A stretch of 63,050 bases of DNA, the filler included, from Reclinomonas americana ATCC 50394 (lineage: Eukaryota), in NCBI GenBank assembly GCA_048213135.1. It is 19 parts of 19 records of this genome, joined end to end, with 100 filler letters (N's around TTAATTAATTAA, not from the genome) between each part and the next. Parts side by side here need not be neighbours in the genome. Positions count along the whole stretch, not along the records: positions 5,010 to 11,943 come from AFZH01017604.1; 18 more parts are not named here. One strand, given 5' to 3'. Within the stretch, counting starts at the first letter, position 1; each line of letters starts with the position of its first letter. The notes below the pieces were generated by a model that made no database searches, was not told where the DNA came from, and worked only from the letters and a program-made list of their open reading frames with translations. Below, piece by piece: positions 5,496 through 10,592 of the stretch. A program made the position numbers and the translations under genes.

Positions 5496-5783
5496 CATGA
5501 ACGCGTGAGAGAGCAGAAGGATGCACTATTTGACACAGAGGAATATCATACACCGCCGTCGGTGACTTCGCCAGGAAAGGGTTGACTCGCGTGATGCAGT
5601 TTATAGGGGAACTAAAAGGTGTGACCAGGGAACGATAGAGCGGGAGAAACGGTCGGCAAGACGAAGAGATTATTCAGAGACCGCTGTCGGCGAAACATCG
5701 ATGCACCACGACCTTGGCCAGGGAATGAAAATAGAGGGAGAAGTGGCAGGCAACACGAAGAAACAGTGCAGAACAGCAGCCTT

Positions 5784-6851
5784 TCAAAAACTTCGATGCA
5801 CCACAACCTCCGCCTCCTCGACCAGGAAGCAGCGCAAAACGATCTCCACCAAGCAGCGTCGATCCACTTCTCCTGCTTCTTCTTGCATCTCCTGCACCGC
5901 TCGCATGGCCAAGCGCGCGCAGTCGAGCTCCTGTTTCGCAAGACCACGCGGCGTCGACCACACGCGCACAGCGTTATTGTCACCACCCGCACTCGCAACG
6001 TGCTGACCATCGGGAGTGACGGCAACAGACCACACCACACCCCCGGTGCATCCATCCAACCGTCCCACTTCATCTCCGTTCACGAGAGACCACACGCGCA
6101 TCGTCACGCCACCGCTGGCACTCATAATCCACTCACCATCGGGAGTGATGGCTACAGACAGCACCGCCTTACCGTGTCCCTGCAGTCGTCGTACCTCCAC
6201 TCCACTCTCCGCACACCACACACGCACTGTCTCGTCCAGGCTACCGCTCACAATGTGCTCACCGTTGGGAGTGACGGCGACGGTCCACACGGCATCAGTG
6301 TGGCCTGTCATCCGTCGCACTTCCTTCCCACTTGCCATCGACCACACGCGCACAGTGTGGTCATCGCCGCCACTGACAATGTGCTGACCATCGGAAGTGA
6401 CAGCCAGTGACAGAACCCAATCATCGTGCCCGACGAATCGTCGCACTTCCTCCCCACTCGCCATGGACCACACTCGCACGGACTCGTCCTCACTTCCGCT
6501 CACAACGTGCTGCCCATCAGGCGTGATGGTGACCGCCATCACCTCTCCAATGTGACCATCCAACACTCGCACCTGCTCGCCGCTCTCCAGCGACCACACG
6601 CGCACTGTGTGGTCGTCGCTTCCACTCACCACATGCCGACTATCGGGGAAGACGGCCACAGATCGCACCAATGCAGTGTGCCCCACCAACCGATGCACCT
6701 CCTCTCCACTCGCCAACGACCACACACGCACGGTCTTGTCGGCACTTCCGCTGACCACGCGCTGACCGTCGGGGGTGAAGGCGACTGCGTACACCGGGTC
6801 GGTGTGGCCACGCAGGAGCTTGCACAGGAGTGAGCGGAAAGGCGAGGCCAT
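5784..6851 (-). CDS. WD40 array paralog A: 7 high-identity WD40 blades plus a conserved helical C-terminal tail
   Basis: Seven ~42-aa GH..V.SVA.TPDG..VVSGS.D.TVRVWS repeats, then TPRGLAKQELDCARLAMRAVQEMQEE..LVEIVLRCFLVEEAEVVVHR. May extend to 5674 through a 95-bp intron (5713-5807). Confidence 0.9.
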   Translation of the reverse strand: MASPFRSLLCKLLRGHTDPVYAVAFTPDGQRVVSGSADKTVRVWSLASGEEVHRLVGHTALVRSVAVFPDSRHVVSGSDDHTVRVWSLESGEQVRVLDGHIGEVMAVTITPDGQHVVSGSEDESVRVWSMASGEEVRRFVGHDDWVLSLAVTSDGQHIVSGGDDHTVRVWSMASGKEVRRMTGHTDAVWTVAVTPNGEHIVSGSLDETVRVWCAESGVEVRRLQGHGKAVLSVAITPDGEWIMSASGGVTMRVWSLVNGDEVGRLDGCTGGVVWSVAVTPDGQHVASAGGDNNAVRVWSTPRGLAKQELDCARLAMRAVQEMQEEAGEVDRRCLVEIVLRCFLVEEAEVVVHRSF

Positions 6852-7162
6852 CGCGTGTGGTGCAAGGAGGAGAACCGAAGAAGGATTGATGTCGGGACGT
6901 GTTTTGTGTTGACTTCACTTGTATACTCATTGAGACTCGCACGCTGCAGTCAGTGGGGGAAAGAAACGACAAGTTCTTCTGGAAAGAAAACGTGGGGGAA
7001 AACAGGGAAGAAGTTCTCGACTAGACAAAAGAAACCTGCTGCTGTCTCAAGACTGGTGTGTGTGTTGATGTTTCAGATATGGTTGGACTCGGTCATCAAG
7101 ACAGCTGTGCTGGGTTGTTGTTGGTGTTGAATGAATTGCTGTCATTCACGATGGTCGCGTTC

Positions 7163-8262: not shown

Positions 8263-9332
8263 TCAGAGACGACCGTCGGCGACACATCGATGCACCACGA
8301 CCTCCGCCTCCTCGACCAGGAAGCAGCGCAGAACGATCTCCACCAAGCAGCATCGATCCACTTCTGCTTCTTCTTGCATCTCCTGAACTGCTCGCATGGC
8401 CGACCGCGCGCAGTTCAGCTCCTGGTTCGCAAGACCGCGCAGAGTCGACCACACTCGCAGCGTCTCGTCCTCACCTCCGCTGACGATGTGATGTCCATTG
8501 GGAGTGATTGCGACAGACCACACTGCATCATCGTATCCCTTCATGCGTCGCACTTCTTCTCCCGTCGTCAGCGACCACACACGCATAGTCTTGTCGTCAC
8601 TCCCGCTCACTACATGCTGACCATCAGGAGTGACGGCAACAGACCACACCGCACCAGCGTGGCCCTTCAGCCGCCGCACTTCCTCACCAGTCATCGACGA
8701 CCACACGCGCACTGTCTTGTCCATACTGCCACTCACAACATGCTGACCATCGGGAGTGACGGCGACGGTCAACACAGGTTTATGGTGGCCCACGATGCGT
8801 CGCACCTCCTCCCCACTCGCCAGTGACCACGCTCGAACGGTGTTGTCCCAGCTGCAACTGACAATATGATGTCCGTCGGGAGTGAGAGCGACAGACAAGA
8901 TCACCCCAGTGTGTCCCTCCAACCGGCGCATTTCTTCGCCACTTGCCACGGACCACACACGCACAGAGCCGTCATCACTTCCGCTCACAACATGCTGACC
9001 GTCGGGAGTAACAACGACAGCACGAACGATGTCAGTGTGTCCCTGCAACACCCGCACCTGCTCGCCGCTCGCCAGTGACCATACGCGCACTGAGTTGTCT
9101 TCGCTGCCACTCACGACGTGCAGGCCATCGGGAGCAACGGCGACAGAGAGCACAGTGTGCGTGTGTCCTTTCATCTGCCGCACCTCTCTTCCACTCTCGA
9201 GAGACCACACTCGCACTACCTCATCGTACCACTGATGATGCAATGACTATCGGGCGTCGCGGCGACGGAGAACACAGTGCCGGTGTGCGCATGCAGGACC
9301 TTGCATGGAAGAGAGGGAGGAGCAGTTGACAT
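8263..9332 (-). pseudogene. WD40 array paralog C, frameshifted in blade 1
   Basis: Starts MSTAPPSLPCKVLHAHTG (9332). Relative to paralog B there is a 4-nt deletion near 9225 (AGTGGT-AC-GATGAG vs AGCGGC-GGTGAA-GACAAG). The remaining six blades and the tail are open in another frame (8263-9243). Confidence 0.8.
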
Positions 9333-9518
9333 TGGATGCGGAAGGGTGAGTGAGTGTCTGCGTGAGTGGAGAGTGTGATAGATTGTCGTCCACCAAAAGG
9401 ACATCAATGTATTCCATGACTTCGCTTGGAGAGGATGGCCTTCTTGATATGCACGATGTAGTTTACAGGGGGAAACATAGGCGTGGTATATGAATGGAAT
9501 GAGGGGGCAACGAAAAAA

Positions 9519-10592
9519 TTAGAGACGACCGTCGACGTCGGCGACACATCGATGCACCGCAACCTCCGCATCCTCGACCAGGAAGCAGCGCAGCACGATC
9601 TCCACCAAGTAGCGTCGATCCACTTCTGCTTCTTCTTGCATCTCCTGCACCGCTCGCATGGCCGACCGCGCGCAGTCCAGCTCCCGACACGCAAGCCCAT
9701 ACGGAGTGGACCACACGCGCACCGTATCGTCTCTGCTCCCACTCACGACGCTGTGACCGTCGGGAGAGACAGCGACAGATTGCACCCAATCAGTGTGCCC
9801 CTCAAGCCGCCACACTTCAACGCCGCTCACGAGAGACCACACTCGCACGGTCTTGTCATCACCGCCACTCACCACATGCCGACCATCAGGAGTGACGGCA
9901 ACGGACATTACCCACTCATCATGCCCCTCAAATCGCTGTACCTTCACTCCACTCTCCGCACACCACACACACACAGTCTTGTCCTTTCCGCCGCTCACGA
10001 TGTGCTCACCGTTAGGGGAGACAGCGACAGTCCACACTTCATCGGAGTGGCCTGACATCCGTCGCACTACCTTCCCACTCACCAGTGACCACATCCGCAC
10101 AGAATAGTCAATACTACCGCTAATAATGTGGTGACCATCGGGGGTGACAGCGACGCCCATGACCCAGCTGTTGTGACCCTCCAATCGTCGCACTTCCTCT
10201 CCACTCGCCATGGACCACACCCGCACTGTCATGTCACCGCTCCCACTCACGACGTGCTCACCATCAGGTGTGACGGCGACCGAAAACACCTCTTCAGTGT
10301 GTCCCTCCATCTGCTGCACCAGCTCGCCACTCGCCAGCGACCACACGTGCACAGAATGTTCGAAACTGCCACCGACAATGCGTGCACTATCGGGGGTGAC
10401 GGCAACACACAACACATGCGACTTGTGTGCCTCCATTCGTCGCACTTCTTTCCAACTCTCGAGGGACCACACCCGCACGATCCTATCTTCACTGGTTGTC
10501 ACAATGTGCCGCCCGTCGGGAGTGAAAGCGACCGCAAACACATCAATGTCCTTACAGAGCATCCTGCAGGGAAGAGAAGGAGGAGCGGCCAT
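9519..10592 (-). CDS. WD40 array paralog D: 7 blades plus conserved tail
   Basis: MAAPPSLPCRML..., seven repeats, tail TPYGLACRELDCARSAMRAVQEMQEEAEVDRRYLVEIVLRCFLVEDAEV. Confidence 0.9.
   Translation of the reverse strand: MAAPPSLPCRMLCKDIDVFAVAFTPDGRHIVTTSEDRIVRVWSLESWKEVRRMEAHKSHVLCVAVTPDSARIVGGSFEHSVHVWSLASGELVQQMEGHTEEVFSVAVTPDGEHVVSGSGDMTVRVWSMASGEEVRRLEGHNSWVMGVAVTPDGHHIISGSIDYSVRMWSLVSGKVVRRMSGHSDEVWTVAVSPNGEHIVSGGKDKTVCVWCAESGVKVQRFEGHDEWVMSVAVTPDGRHVVSGGDDKTVRVWSLVSGVEVWRLEGHTDWVQSVAVSPDGHSVVSGSRDDTVRVWSTPYGLACRELDCARSAMRAVQEMQEEAEVDRRYLVEIVLRCFLVEDAEVAVHRCVADVDGRL

What the first reader, a model, noticed from the sequence alone, without database searches (positions are those of the whole stretch)
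5674..10592. Tandem array of hypervariable 7-blade WD40 genes with a conserved helical tail: candidate diversifying receptor system
Seen: four head-to-tail paralogs whose propeller regions have no introns, in a genome where almost every other gene has many. Each is built from ~126-bp blades with a near-invariant scaffold. Variation concentrates at GHTxxVx and SGSxDx (e.g. DPVY, ALVR, GEVM, DWVL, DAVW, HTVL, KPVL, EEVF, SWVM, DWVQ; second site A/D/E/L/W/K/M/G/I/R). Established: these are top-face ligand-binding positions, and they are the ones under diversifying selection in fungal HET-E/HET-D (NWD) non-self receptors. Unlike those, there is no NACHT or effector domain here, only a ~55-aa tail conserved in A, C and D. 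Inference: a family of stand-alone variable binders (immune-like) that dock on a common partner through the tail.
Basis: partly seen in the sequence, partly recalled or inferred. Interest (0 to 1): 0.85.

Follow-up and report, generated by a model that had tools for sequence, protein, structure and literature searches.

The report
Four tandem WD40 propeller genes
Four neighbouring single-exon genes each encode a seven-bladed WD40 propeller, three with a short helical tail otherwise seen only in a jakobid protist; their binding faces differ, but nothing yet shows an immune role.

Summary
Four head-to-tail ORFs on the minus strand (5784-10592) each encode one complete seven-blade WD40 propeller and no other Pfam domain. 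Variation peaks at the top-face loop positions, and A, C and D carry a 56-62 aa tail.

- Copy C is broken in blade 1 by a 4-bp gap and an early stop.
- Copy B has no tail.
- The window is a chain of short contigs; the array sits on one 6.9-kb contig, 191 bp downstream of a PROPPIN gene.

The receptor reading is only partly supported. The scaffold is under purifying selection (omega about 0.2). The top-face sites run at about the neutral rate; omega above 1 is nominally significant in 2 of 6 paralogue pairs and at 0 of 42 sites. Blades are only about 56% identical and always seven, so there is no HET-E-style concerted evolution.

The tail's high similarity inside the array is largely recent homogenisation. 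Its synonymous divergence is 0.17-0.27 against 0.78-1.15 in the propellers, and the similarity runs on into non-coding spacer. The tail is still a real coding module: its single relative among 1.84 billion representatives is a Reclinomonas americana EST ORF.

Most likely this is a lineage-specific birth-and-death family of stand-alone WD40 adaptors. Interest is modest.

The parts
5784..6851 (-). Gene A: a 7-blade WD40 propeller (codons 1-299) plus a 56-aa tail (5787-5954), with its stop at 5784-5786.
   Evidence: ORF and translation. Pfam WD40 matches 7 stretches, E 4e-72.
5618..5807 (-). Roughly 95-bp tandem duplication of A's 3' end (copy 1 is 5713-5807, copy 2 about 5618-5712). Copy 1 supplies A's early stop. 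Copy 2 still reads the family's usual C-terminal end and stops at 5674-5676, which is the finding's start coordinate.
   Evidence: Read from the sequence and the unit alignment. The duplication was judged by eye and not scored.
7163..8071 (-). Gene B: a 7-blade WD40 propeller of 302 aa with no tail. It stops 4 residues after blade 7.
   Evidence: Pfam WD40 matches 7 stretches, E 3.2e-80. Its downstream spacer does not align to the tail.
8263..9332 (-). Gene C: a propeller plus a 60-aa tail (8266-8445). Blade 1 is broken: the ATG frame (9332) stops at 9216-9218 after 38 codons, at a 4-column gap relative to A, B and D. The remaining 6 blades and the tail are open in another frame from 9243.
9519..10592 (-). 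Gene D: a 7-blade WD40 propeller (codons 1-295) plus a 62-aa tail (9522-9707).
   Evidence: AlphaFold2 gives mean pLDDT 88.7 with 28 strands. Tail helices are at residues 297-321 and 326-336, and the last 23 residues are below pLDDT 50.
9084..9700 (-). Homogenised block at the D/C junction (tail, spacer, C blades 1-2). It is paralogous to the C/B junction (about 7830-8445).
   Evidence: Identity in 60-column windows is 0.88-0.93 over the tail and 0.95 just after the stop. It falls to 0.33-0.73 in the indel-rich middle of the spacer and rises to 0.92-0.95 over blade 2. Beyond that it drops to 0.60-0.68, apart from two windows at 0.80-0.83.
9450..9474 (-). Conserved non-coding 25-mer containing TGTAAA, about 45 nt after D's stop. 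An identical copy lies at 8189-8213 after C's stop, and diverged copies lie after A and in the B-A spacer. It is a candidate 3'-end or promoter element.
   Evidence: There are 2 exact matches in the window against 0 expected in 100 shuffles. Its function is inferred.
10784..11618 (-). 3' part of a PROPPIN (Atg18/WIPI-type) gene with introns, on the same strand. Its stop at 10784-10786 lies 191 bp upstream of D's ATG.
   Evidence: Pfam PROPPIN E 1.8e-11 on 11256-11618. The last exon was translated to its stop. Intron positions were read by eye.

Best explanation
This is a small, lineage-specific family of stand-alone WD40 adaptor proteins, probably from a jakobid, that evolves by birth and death in a tandem array.

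**How it most likely works**
- Each ORF is its own single-exon gene and makes one closed seven-blade propeller.
- The His/Ser-Thr/Asp/Trp scaffold of the blades keeps the fold and is under purifying selection.
- The loop residues on the top face (the d-a loop and the b-c turn) are essentially unconstrained. Each paralogue therefore shows a different ligand surface and probably binds a different protein or peptide.
- The C-terminal two-helix tail is a shared module. It most likely ties these propellers to one common partner or to each other.
- The tail, the 3' flank and the first blades are kept alike by unequal crossing-over or gene conversion between neighbouring copies, while the propeller cores drift apart.
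- Copies also decay: C is frameshifted, B has lost the tail, and A has a duplicated 3' end with an early stop.

**Shown:** the anatomy, the fold, selection on the scaffold, near-neutral top-face sites, the homogenised block, and that the tail is coding and transcribed in a relative.

**Inferred:** ligand binding, the tail's docking role, and separate transcription of each copy.
For: - **Complete propellers.** Each has 7 blades, with PF00400 E-values of 3e-70 to 3e-80. 21 of 27 blades carry the full H/[ST]/D/W set. The AlphaFold2 model of D has 28 strands at pLDDT 94-99. Foldseek gives target-normalised TM-scores of 0.95-0.97 to the PkwA WD40 domain (5YZV) and the WRAP-T designs.
- **Scaffold selection.** Omega is 0.18-0.25 in all 6 of 6 paralogue pairs and 0.22 by Nei-Gojobori counting.
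- **Top-face sites.**
  - All 6 pairs reject omega = 0.2; log-likelihood falls by 3.8 to 21 relative to omega = 1.
  - The best omega is 1.5-2 in 2 pairs, flat at or above 1 in 1 pair, 5 or more in 2 pairs, and 0.5 in 1 pair.
  - Pooled tree-based counting gives 0.86-1.0.
- **Different faces.** Hot-site identity between blades at the same position in different paralogues is 0.20, against 0.14 for blades at different positions. The scaffold figures are 0.70 against 0.63.
- **Homogenisation.** Tail dS is 0.17-0.27 against propeller dS of 0.78-1.15. High identity runs from the tail through the non-coding spacer into blade 2.
- **The tail is coding.**
  - Its indels keep the reading frame.
  - dN/dS is 0.21-0.51.
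  - Its only hit among 1.84 billion representatives is a 116-aa ORF of a Reclinomonas americana EST, labelled complete, with blade 7, the tail and a stop (E 5e-16, 59-63% identity).
- **No space for upstream exons.** The gap to the PROPPIN stop is 191 bp. Spacers of this size fit the close gene packing reported for the jakobid Andalucia godoyi, which averages 217 nt (PMC7050145, one passage).
Against: - There is no expression or splice evidence for this locus itself.
- No ligand or partner is known, and the tail has no recognisable family.
- The second half of the tail is modelled at low confidence, below pLDDT 57 from residue 326.
- Two of 6 pairs (B-D and C-D) nominally favour omega above 1 at the top-face sites, which fits the receptor reading better than plain relaxation.
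- One copy of 4 is broken and one lacks the tail, so part of the array may be non-functional.
- GC3 is 0.63-0.72, against 0.78-0.84 in four neighbouring coding stretches. This could mean weak expression or a foreign origin.
- Family size is unknown, because no whole genome is held.
Confidence: 0.55

Rival explanations
1. One reading: a diversifying, immune-like family of stand-alone binders. Variable top faces recognise non-self or fast-changing targets, and the conserved tail docks them on a common signalling or degradation partner. This would work like HET-E sensors, or like expanded F-box or SOCS-box substrate receptors, but without a fused NTPase.
For: - Variation sits at the HET-E-equivalent codons.
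- Omega at these codons exceeds 1 nominally in B-D and C-D. Twice the log-likelihood gain is 9.7 and 7.6 with five sites, and 11.2 and 8.2 with the four sites chosen in advance.
- The six closest blade pairs give a best omega of 2, with twice the log-likelihood gain of 5.2.
- The array is tandem, has a pseudogene-like member and shows recombination.
- The closest long relatives by sequence are bacterial and fungal proteins with STAND NTPase, caspase, CHAT, NB-ARC or kinase domains fused to WD40. The best near-length hit begins with what I read by eye as a TIR-like N-terminus; this was not scanned.
Against: - Four of 6 pairs do not exceed omega = 1, and 0 of 42 sites are significant (smallest P 0.35).
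- The sites were partly chosen for their variability, the pairs share lineages, and dS is near saturation.
- The youngest blade pair (B2-C2, 93% nucleotide identity) has 1 of 5 hot codons changed, against 5 synonymous changes.
- There is no concerted evolution of blades (65% nucleotide identity) and no repeat-number change.
- The same hotspot pattern is generic to repetitive WD40 proteins (PMC5587647).
- Only 4 copies were seen, and no effector or partner is known.
Confidence: 0.15
2. A decaying tandem duplication with no present function. The copies are relics whose scaffold conservation reflects past selection.
For: - C is frameshifted with an early stop.
- B lacks the tail.
- A has a duplicated 3' end with a premature stop.
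- D's first blade has lost its Gly-His pair.
- GC3 is lower than in the neighbours.
- Top-face sites evolve at about the neutral rate.
Against: - Scaffold omega is 0.18-0.25 in every pair, over a dS of about 1. This needs long-lasting selection on at least most copies.
- Three of 4 ORFs are intact over 302-357 codons.
- A related tail-bearing gene is transcribed in R. americana.
- C's break could be an error of a fragmented draft assembly.
Confidence: 0.12
3. The ORFs are modules of one larger multi-propeller gene. The tail and spacer would be introns, or would be alternatively spliced.
For: - Pyrimidine-rich tracts ending in AG lie just before the first blade of each copy.
- In-frame, stop-free GT..AG joins exist at all three junctions: 36, 37 and 4 combinations.
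Against: - No strong donor is shared at homologous places.
- Each ORF starts with its own ATG at the strand that closes the ring, and is a complete propeller.
- The R. americana EST ORF reads blade 7, the tail and a stop as one mature message.
- The tail shows a weak coding signature: 7, 7 and 12 variable sites at codon positions 1, 2 and 3.
- No fused protein of 626-2000 aa was found; the best identity was 51%.
Confidence: 0.05
4. On origin rather than function: a bacterial-type WD40 module acquired by horizontal transfer and then duplicated. This would explain the missing introns and the bacterial best hits.
For: - The genes have no introns, while the PROPPIN gene next to them has introns.
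- The best solved and database relatives are bacterial or metagenomic, such as the Nostoc protein 2YMU at E 2e-127.
- GC3 is below that of the neighbours.
Against: - Identity to any hit is at most 58% and covers the propeller only. Consensus-like repeats look alike across kingdoms, so best hits say little.
- Fungal proteins score similarly.
- Overall GC is 59-64%, like the neighbours.
- No tree was built.
Confidence: 0.08

Closest known systems
Consensus-like (repetitive) WD40 propellers: PkwA of Thermomonospora curvata (5YZV), the Nostoc 'highly repetitive propeller' (2YMU) and the WRAP-T designs (7BIG and others)
   Same: - They share the seven-blade fold. Target-normalised TM-scores are 0.95-0.97 for 5YZV and the WRAP-T designs, and 37-40% identity holds for all three.
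- 2YMU is the best sequence match in the PDB, at E 2e-127.
- They show the same pattern of a conserved scaffold with diverse hotspot sites (PMC5587647, passages).
   Different: - Those natural proteins are domains of larger bacterial proteins, such as kinase or multi-propeller proteins.
- Here the propeller stands alone, in a eukaryote, with a C-terminal tail that none of them covers; their alignments end at query residues 295-306.
- Identity between blades within one protein is 0.51-0.61, below that paper's 0.7 cut-off for 'highly repetitive'.
Podospora anserina HET-E/HET-D/HNWD NACHT-WD40 receptors
   Same: They have 42-residue WD repeats with a strongly conserved scaffold. Variation sits at the same four top-face codons: their pairs (7,9) and (25,27) are my positions 16, 18, 34 and 36. 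They are also multi-copy and recombining.
   Different: - There is no NACHT domain and no N-terminal effector domain.
- Blades are 65% identical at nucleotide level, against up to 100% in HNWD.
- There is no clustering of blades by gene and no repeat-number change: all copies have 7 blades, against 2-15 in HNWD.
- Positive selection is not established.
Reclinomonas americana EST ORF (EukProt EP00694, from EST EC795383.1; P0241)
   Same: It is the only protein found with the tail. It reads blade 7, the tail and a stop, with 59% (A) and 63% (D) identity over 111-115 aa. Its indels keep the reading frame, and the conserved core of the second helix is shared.
   Different: It is only a 116-aa fragment, so its blade number and genomic setting are unknown. 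It has a longer acidic linker between the two helices, and the last residues differ.
Substrate-receptor families with a small docking box plus a variable binding domain (WD40 with a SOCS box, such as WSB1; WD40 with an F-box). This comparison is recalled from my own knowledge and comes from no call.
   Same: It is an analogy of mechanism only: a short helical module shared by paralogues next to a propeller whose binding face differs. In WSB-type proteins the box also follows the propeller.
   Different: No F-box or SOCS-box match was found for the tail, even at E up to 10. There was no PDB profile hit; the best was E 1.8, which is chance. Partner proteins of the source organism were not available.

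Membership tests
WD40-repeat beta-propeller (Pfam PF00400) | Several consecutive WD40 repeats recognised by the family model | tested here: met
   7, 7, 6 and 7 stretches matched, with E-values of 4e-72, 3.2e-80, 3.4e-70 and 3.9e-72 against a cut-off of 27 bits.
WD40-repeat beta-propeller (Pfam PF00400) | A closed propeller fold of four-stranded blades | tested here: met
   The AlphaFold2 model of D has 28 strands, pLDDT 94-99 over the blades and pTM 0.84. Foldseek target-normalised TM-scores are 0.95-0.97 to 5YZV, 7BIG and 7BIE.
WD40-repeat beta-propeller (Pfam PF00400) | The Asp-His-Ser/Thr-Trp hydrogen-bond tetrad in the blades | tested here: met
   21 of 27 blades have all four residues. 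The exceptions are A6, A7, B3, C7, D1 and D2.
Fungal HNWD / HET-E-type NLR | A NACHT NTPase domain N-terminal to the repeats | tested here: not met
   No NACHT appears among the Pfam families shown (25 per protein). Only 191 bp lie between the PROPPIN stop and D's ATG. The other copies follow one another directly.
Fungal HNWD / HET-E-type NLR | Near-identical repeats kept alike by concerted evolution within and between genes | tested here: not met
   Mean blade identity is 64.5% at nucleotide level (maximum 93%, in one pair) and 56% at amino-acid level. Blades at the same position in different genes are slightly closer than other pairs.
Fungal HNWD / HET-E-type NLR | Variable repeat number between paralogues and alleles | tested here: not met
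   All four copies have seven blades, one of them broken. Alleles are not testable, because no other isolate is available.
Fungal HNWD / HET-E-type NLR | Positive selection at the four top-face codons | tested here: inconclusive
   Omega is nominally above 1 in 2 of 6 pairs, not different from 1 in 3, and best at 0.5 in 1. Zero of 42 sites are significant by tree-based counting. dS is near saturation.
'Highly repetitive' WD40 class of Hu et al. 2017 (PMC5587647) | Internal repeat identity of at least 0.7 | tested here: not met
   Mean within-protein blade identity is 0.53, 0.59, 0.61 and 0.51. This falls in that paper's 0.4-0.7 band.
F-box or SOCS-box WD40 substrate receptors | A recognisable F-box or SOCS-box next to the propeller | tested here: not met
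   Pfam on the three tails at E up to 10 gives 0, 1 and 0 families. The one family is DUF4761 at E 0.2, below its cut-off.
F-box or SOCS-box WD40 substrate receptors | Binding of the box to Skp1 or Elongin B/C | not testable with these tools
   Partner sequences of the source organism are not held, and the complex tool's reference chains cover only bacteria, archaea and phages.

The most novel reading that the evidence does not exclude
A deep-branching eukaryote (a jakobid) runs a recognition system built from WD40 propellers alone. Tandem, recombining genes diversify their top faces, while a homogenised two-helix tail plugs every variant into one shared signalling or degradation partner. This would be an NLR-like sensor repertoire with the sensor and the NTPase or effector on separate polypeptides.
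Probability: 0.12. Interest if true: 0.7.

Novelty: new member of a known kind. Interest (0 to 1): 0.3.

Why it matters
If the ordinary reading is right, this is a tidy example of two things. First, a tandem family can keep its ends alike by recombination while its binding cores diverge. Second, a lineage-restricted tail module marks a jakobid-specific WD40 family.

It also shows that variable top-face positions on a near-invariant scaffold are what any repetitive WD40 protein looks like. That pattern is not by itself a sign of immune-type diversification.

If the receptor reading were right, it would extend repeat-based, diversifying recognition to Discoba. It would also show such a system without a fused NTPase, which bears on how NLR-like architectures were assembled.

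Tried and rejected
- **Whole genome.** None is held for this window, so family size could not be measured.
- **RNA runs.** No RNA holder was listed for 5400-11300. None was listed, which is not the same as none exists.
- **Earlier findings.** Nothing was found for this genome or by sequence. 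A word search gave one analogous case in another genome.
- **Tail searches that found nothing usable.**
  - 5.8 billion proteins of near length: 0 hits among 15 candidates.
  - Pfam at E up to 10.
  - PDB profile: best E 1.8.
  - ESM Atlas: no usable hit.
- **Whole-protein searches with D.** Near and longer lengths found no identical or fused protein. The best identities were 58% and 51%, and only 120 of 1510 and 120 of 3815 hits were listed.
- **Rfam.** There were 0 matches on the whole window.
- **Gcp1-3 WD40 proteins** of the mitochondrial type II secretion paper were considered and dropped. They are described there as related to Pex7, which is not this repeat type (PMC8134430, passages).
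- **First maximum-likelihood fit.** The optimiser stayed at its starting value of 1 for the hot-site omega in most sets, so I discarded those hot-site values. I kept its scaffold omega (0.18-0.25) and replaced the hot-site fit with likelihood profiles.
- **Splice test.** The GT..AG enumeration gives many in-frame joins, so it cannot decide on splicing.
- **Self-association test.** A complex-prediction job with two copies of D never entered the queue. It was full, so there is no result of any kind.
- **C-terminal targeting signal.** A peroxisomal targeting signal was considered by eye for the C-terminal ends. They are not conserved between copies, so I dropped it without testing.

Full report
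**What is there**

On the minus strand lie four head-to-tail ORFs: A 5784-6851, B 7163-8071, C 8263-9332 and D 9519-10592.
- Pfam sees only beta-propeller families among the 25 shown per protein. PF00400 matches 7, 7, 6 and 7 stretches, with E-values of 3e-70 to 3e-80.
- Tandem Repeats Finder reports a 126-bp period in 4 of 4 rows.
- Cutting at the end of each repeat gives 27 whole blades and one broken blade. Of the 27, 22 are exactly 42 aa.
- Each ORF begins with an ATG a few residues before the strand that closes the ring and ends after blade 7, so each is one complete propeller.
- The AlphaFold2 model of D has 28 strands at pLDDT 94-99 and pTM 0.84.
- Its nearest solved folds are the PkwA WD40 domain, the WRAP-T designs and the Nostoc repetitive propeller, with target-normalised TM-scores up to 0.97 and a sequence E-value of 2e-127 for 2YMU.
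- A tblastn of the four proteins against the window finds only these four loci, plus an unrelated WD40 gene at 19267-20250.

**Context**

The window contains 18 joints, each made of 44 N, a 12-base all-frame stop linker and 44 N. These mostly sit at microsatellites, so the window is a chain of short contigs.

The array lies on one contig, 5010-11943. Upstream on the same strand is the 3' part of a PROPPIN gene (Pfam E 1.8e-11). It has introns, read by eye, and its last exon stops at 10784-10786. That is 191 bp before D's ATG. The other spacers are about 190-310 bp. The array therefore cannot be the 3' exons of an NLR on this contig.

- C's ATG frame runs 38 codons and stops, at a 4-column gap relative to A, B and D. 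The rest of C is open in another frame. This is a pseudogene or a draft-assembly error.
- B ends 4 residues after blade 7 and has no tail. Its downstream spacer is unrelated to the tail.
- A carries a roughly 95-bp tandem duplication of its 3' end. The first copy gives an early stop (judged by eye).

**Variation among blades**

Entropy peaks at positions 16, 34, 36, 11, 15, 18 and 14 of my 42-residue numbering of the blade, at 3.31 to 2.42 bits. Most scaffold positions are below 1 bit, and the Trp is invariant in 28 of 28.

Positions 16, 18, 34 and 36 correspond to the pairs (7,9) and (25,27) reported under positive selection in HET-E/HET-D. Those lie in the d-a loop and the b-c turn on the top face (PMC1805685, passages read).

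The same pattern is described as general for repetitive WD40 proteins of prokaryotes, protists and fungi (PMC5587647, passages). For the hotspot paper PMC3419727 I saw only the search listing and the start of the abstract.

**Selection tests**

| Test | Scaffold | Top-face sites |
|---|---|---|
| Nei-Gojobori, 39 pairs of blades at the same position in different paralogues | pN 0.164, pS 0.504, omega 0.22 | five reader sites: pN 0.546; own pS 0.674 |
| Pairwise codon model with shared divergence time | omega 0.18-0.25 in 6 of 6 paralogue pairs | see below |
| Parsimony counting on a tree of the 27 blades | 0.33 | 0 of 42 sites significant (smallest P 0.35); pooled 0.86-1.0 |

- For the top-face sites in the Nei-Gojobori test, the ratio is 0.8 raw, 0.57 after correction, and about 1.1 against scaffold pS.
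- Likelihood profiles for the top-face sites reject omega = 0.2 in all 6 pairs.
  - A-C and A-D give a best omega of 1.5-2, not significantly above 1.
  - A-B is flat at or above 1.
  - B-C is best at 0.5.
  - B-D and C-D give 5 or more. Twice the log-likelihood gain is 9.7 and 7.6 with the five sites, and 11.2 and 8.2 with the four sites fixed in advance from HET-E.
- The youngest blade pair (B2-C2, 93% nucleotide identity) has 4 non-synonymous changes, 1 of them at a hot site, and 5 synonymous changes.

Several caveats apply. The sites were partly chosen for their variability. The pairs share lineages. dS is 0.78-1.15. The blade tree ignores recombination.

Positive selection is not shown either. 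The sites behave as unconstrained, or as saturated.

**No HET-E-style dynamics**

Blades share on average 64.5% nucleotide and 56% amino-acid identity. Within-protein identity is 0.51-0.61. All copies have seven blades. Blades at the same position in different genes are slightly closer than other pairs. In HNWD genes the repeats reach 100% identity, cluster by species and vary from 2 to 15 per gene.

The four top faces are essentially unrelated. Hot-site identity is 0.20 for blades at the same position in different genes, against 0.14 for other pairs.

**The tail**

Within the array the tail is 84-85% identical. Its synonymous divergence is only 0.17-0.27, four to five times lower than in the propellers next to it.

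Between the D/C and C/B junctions the high identity is not confined to the tail. In 60-column windows it runs as follows:
- 0.88-0.93 over the tail;
- 0.95 in the first 100 or so non-coding bases after the stop, including an identical 25-mer found twice in the window (0 expected);
- 0.33-0.73 in an indel-rich stretch;
- 0.92-0.95 over blade 2;
- 0.60-0.68 beyond that.

The tail is nevertheless not just spacer.
- Its indels keep the reading frame.
- dN/dS is 0.21-0.51.
- Third codon positions vary most: 7, 7 and 12 variable sites over 55 codons.
- A profile of the three tails, read against 1.84 billion cluster representatives, finds exactly one protein (E 5e-16).
  - That protein is a 116-aa ORF, labelled complete, from a Reclinomonas americana EST in EukProt.
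  - It consists of a last blade, the tail and a stop. It is 59% identical to A and 63% to D, with a longer acidic linker.
  - This shows that in a jakobid the tail is part of a mature message and ends the protein.
  - It also suggests the window comes from a jakobid. That is an inference: no protein of the window's own genome appeared in any search.
- The tail has no Pfam, PDB or Atlas relative.
- It is modelled as a helix at residues 297-321 (pLDDT about 73-86) and a short hydrophobic helix at 326-336 (about 46-57). The rest has low confidence.

**Reading**

The best-supported explanation is a lineage-specific, tandemly evolving family of stand-alone WD40 adaptors.
- The fold is maintained by selection.
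- The top faces are free to differ, so each paralogue probably binds something else.
- A shared C-terminal module is kept alike by recombination and probably connects the propellers to a common partner or to each other.
- Copies are lost along the way.

Ligand binding and the tail's role are inferred from what WD40 top faces do in general. Nothing here tests them.

The immune-like receptor reading survives as a minority possibility. It has two nominally significant pairs, a recombining array, and sensor-type relatives among bacterial and fungal STAND proteins. It lacks every defining HNWD feature that could be tested, apart from the location of the variable sites.

A one-gene, multi-propeller reading is unlikely in view of the EST, but only RNA from this organism can exclude it. 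A foreign origin is possible: the genes lack introns, GC3 is 0.63-0.72 against 0.78-0.84 nearby, and the best hits are bacterial. It is untested, because consensus-like repeats look alike across kingdoms.

**Verdict**

The feature is real and was correctly described. Its interpretation as a diversifying receptor system is not established, and part of its basis (the conserved tail) has a simpler cause. The family is a new member of a known kind, with an orphan tail module shared with Reclinomonas. Supplementary files of the cited papers were not opened, and none bears on a claim made here.

Noticed in passing
window, 18 places (for example 4910-5009, 11944-12043, 17023-17122): Each gap is 44 N, then TTAATTAATTAA, then 44 N, and mostly sits next to microsatellites. 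The window is therefore a chain of contigs of about 1.3-7.7 kb joined by an all-frame stop linker. Gene neighbourhood across these joints should not be trusted.
   Followed up: partly
5618-5807 (-): A roughly 95-bp tandem duplication of gene A's 3' end, covering the last codons, the stop and the start of the 3' flank. The first copy gives A a shortened C-terminus. The second copy keeps the family's usual ending and stops at 5674-5676.
   Followed up: partly
8189-8213 and 9450-9474 (-): An identical 25-mer containing TGTAAA lies about 45-50 nt after the stops of C and D, inside about 100 nt of near-identical non-coding DNA. Diverged copies follow A and lie in the B-A spacer. It may be a 3'-end or promoter signal.
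   Followed up: partly
5784-10592 compared with 10947-11618, 5106-5495 and 19267-20250: GC3 of the four array genes is 0.63-0.72. In four other coding stretches it is 0.78-0.84. Overall GC is similar (0.56-0.64).
   Followed up: no
19267-20250 (+): A different WD40 gene, 23-32% identical to the array proteins and without the regular 42-residue consensus. It lies on another contig of the window.
   Followed up: no
36099-38381 (+) and 48494-53453 (-): Long ORFs that look to me like transposon proteins: a Helitron-like N-terminal region in the first, and transposase-like stretches in the second. This was recognised by eye and not scanned.
   Followed up: no
5106-5495 (+): An ORF of 129 aa with ordinary protein composition converges on gene A's 3' end. 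It has no Pfam match.
   Followed up: partly
about 6818-6851, 8038-8071, 9299-9332 and 10568-10592 (-): The first codons of all four genes are pyrimidine-rich and end in AG just before the first blade. This mimics a splice acceptor. It may simply encode the Pro/Ser-rich N-terminus.
   Followed up: partly
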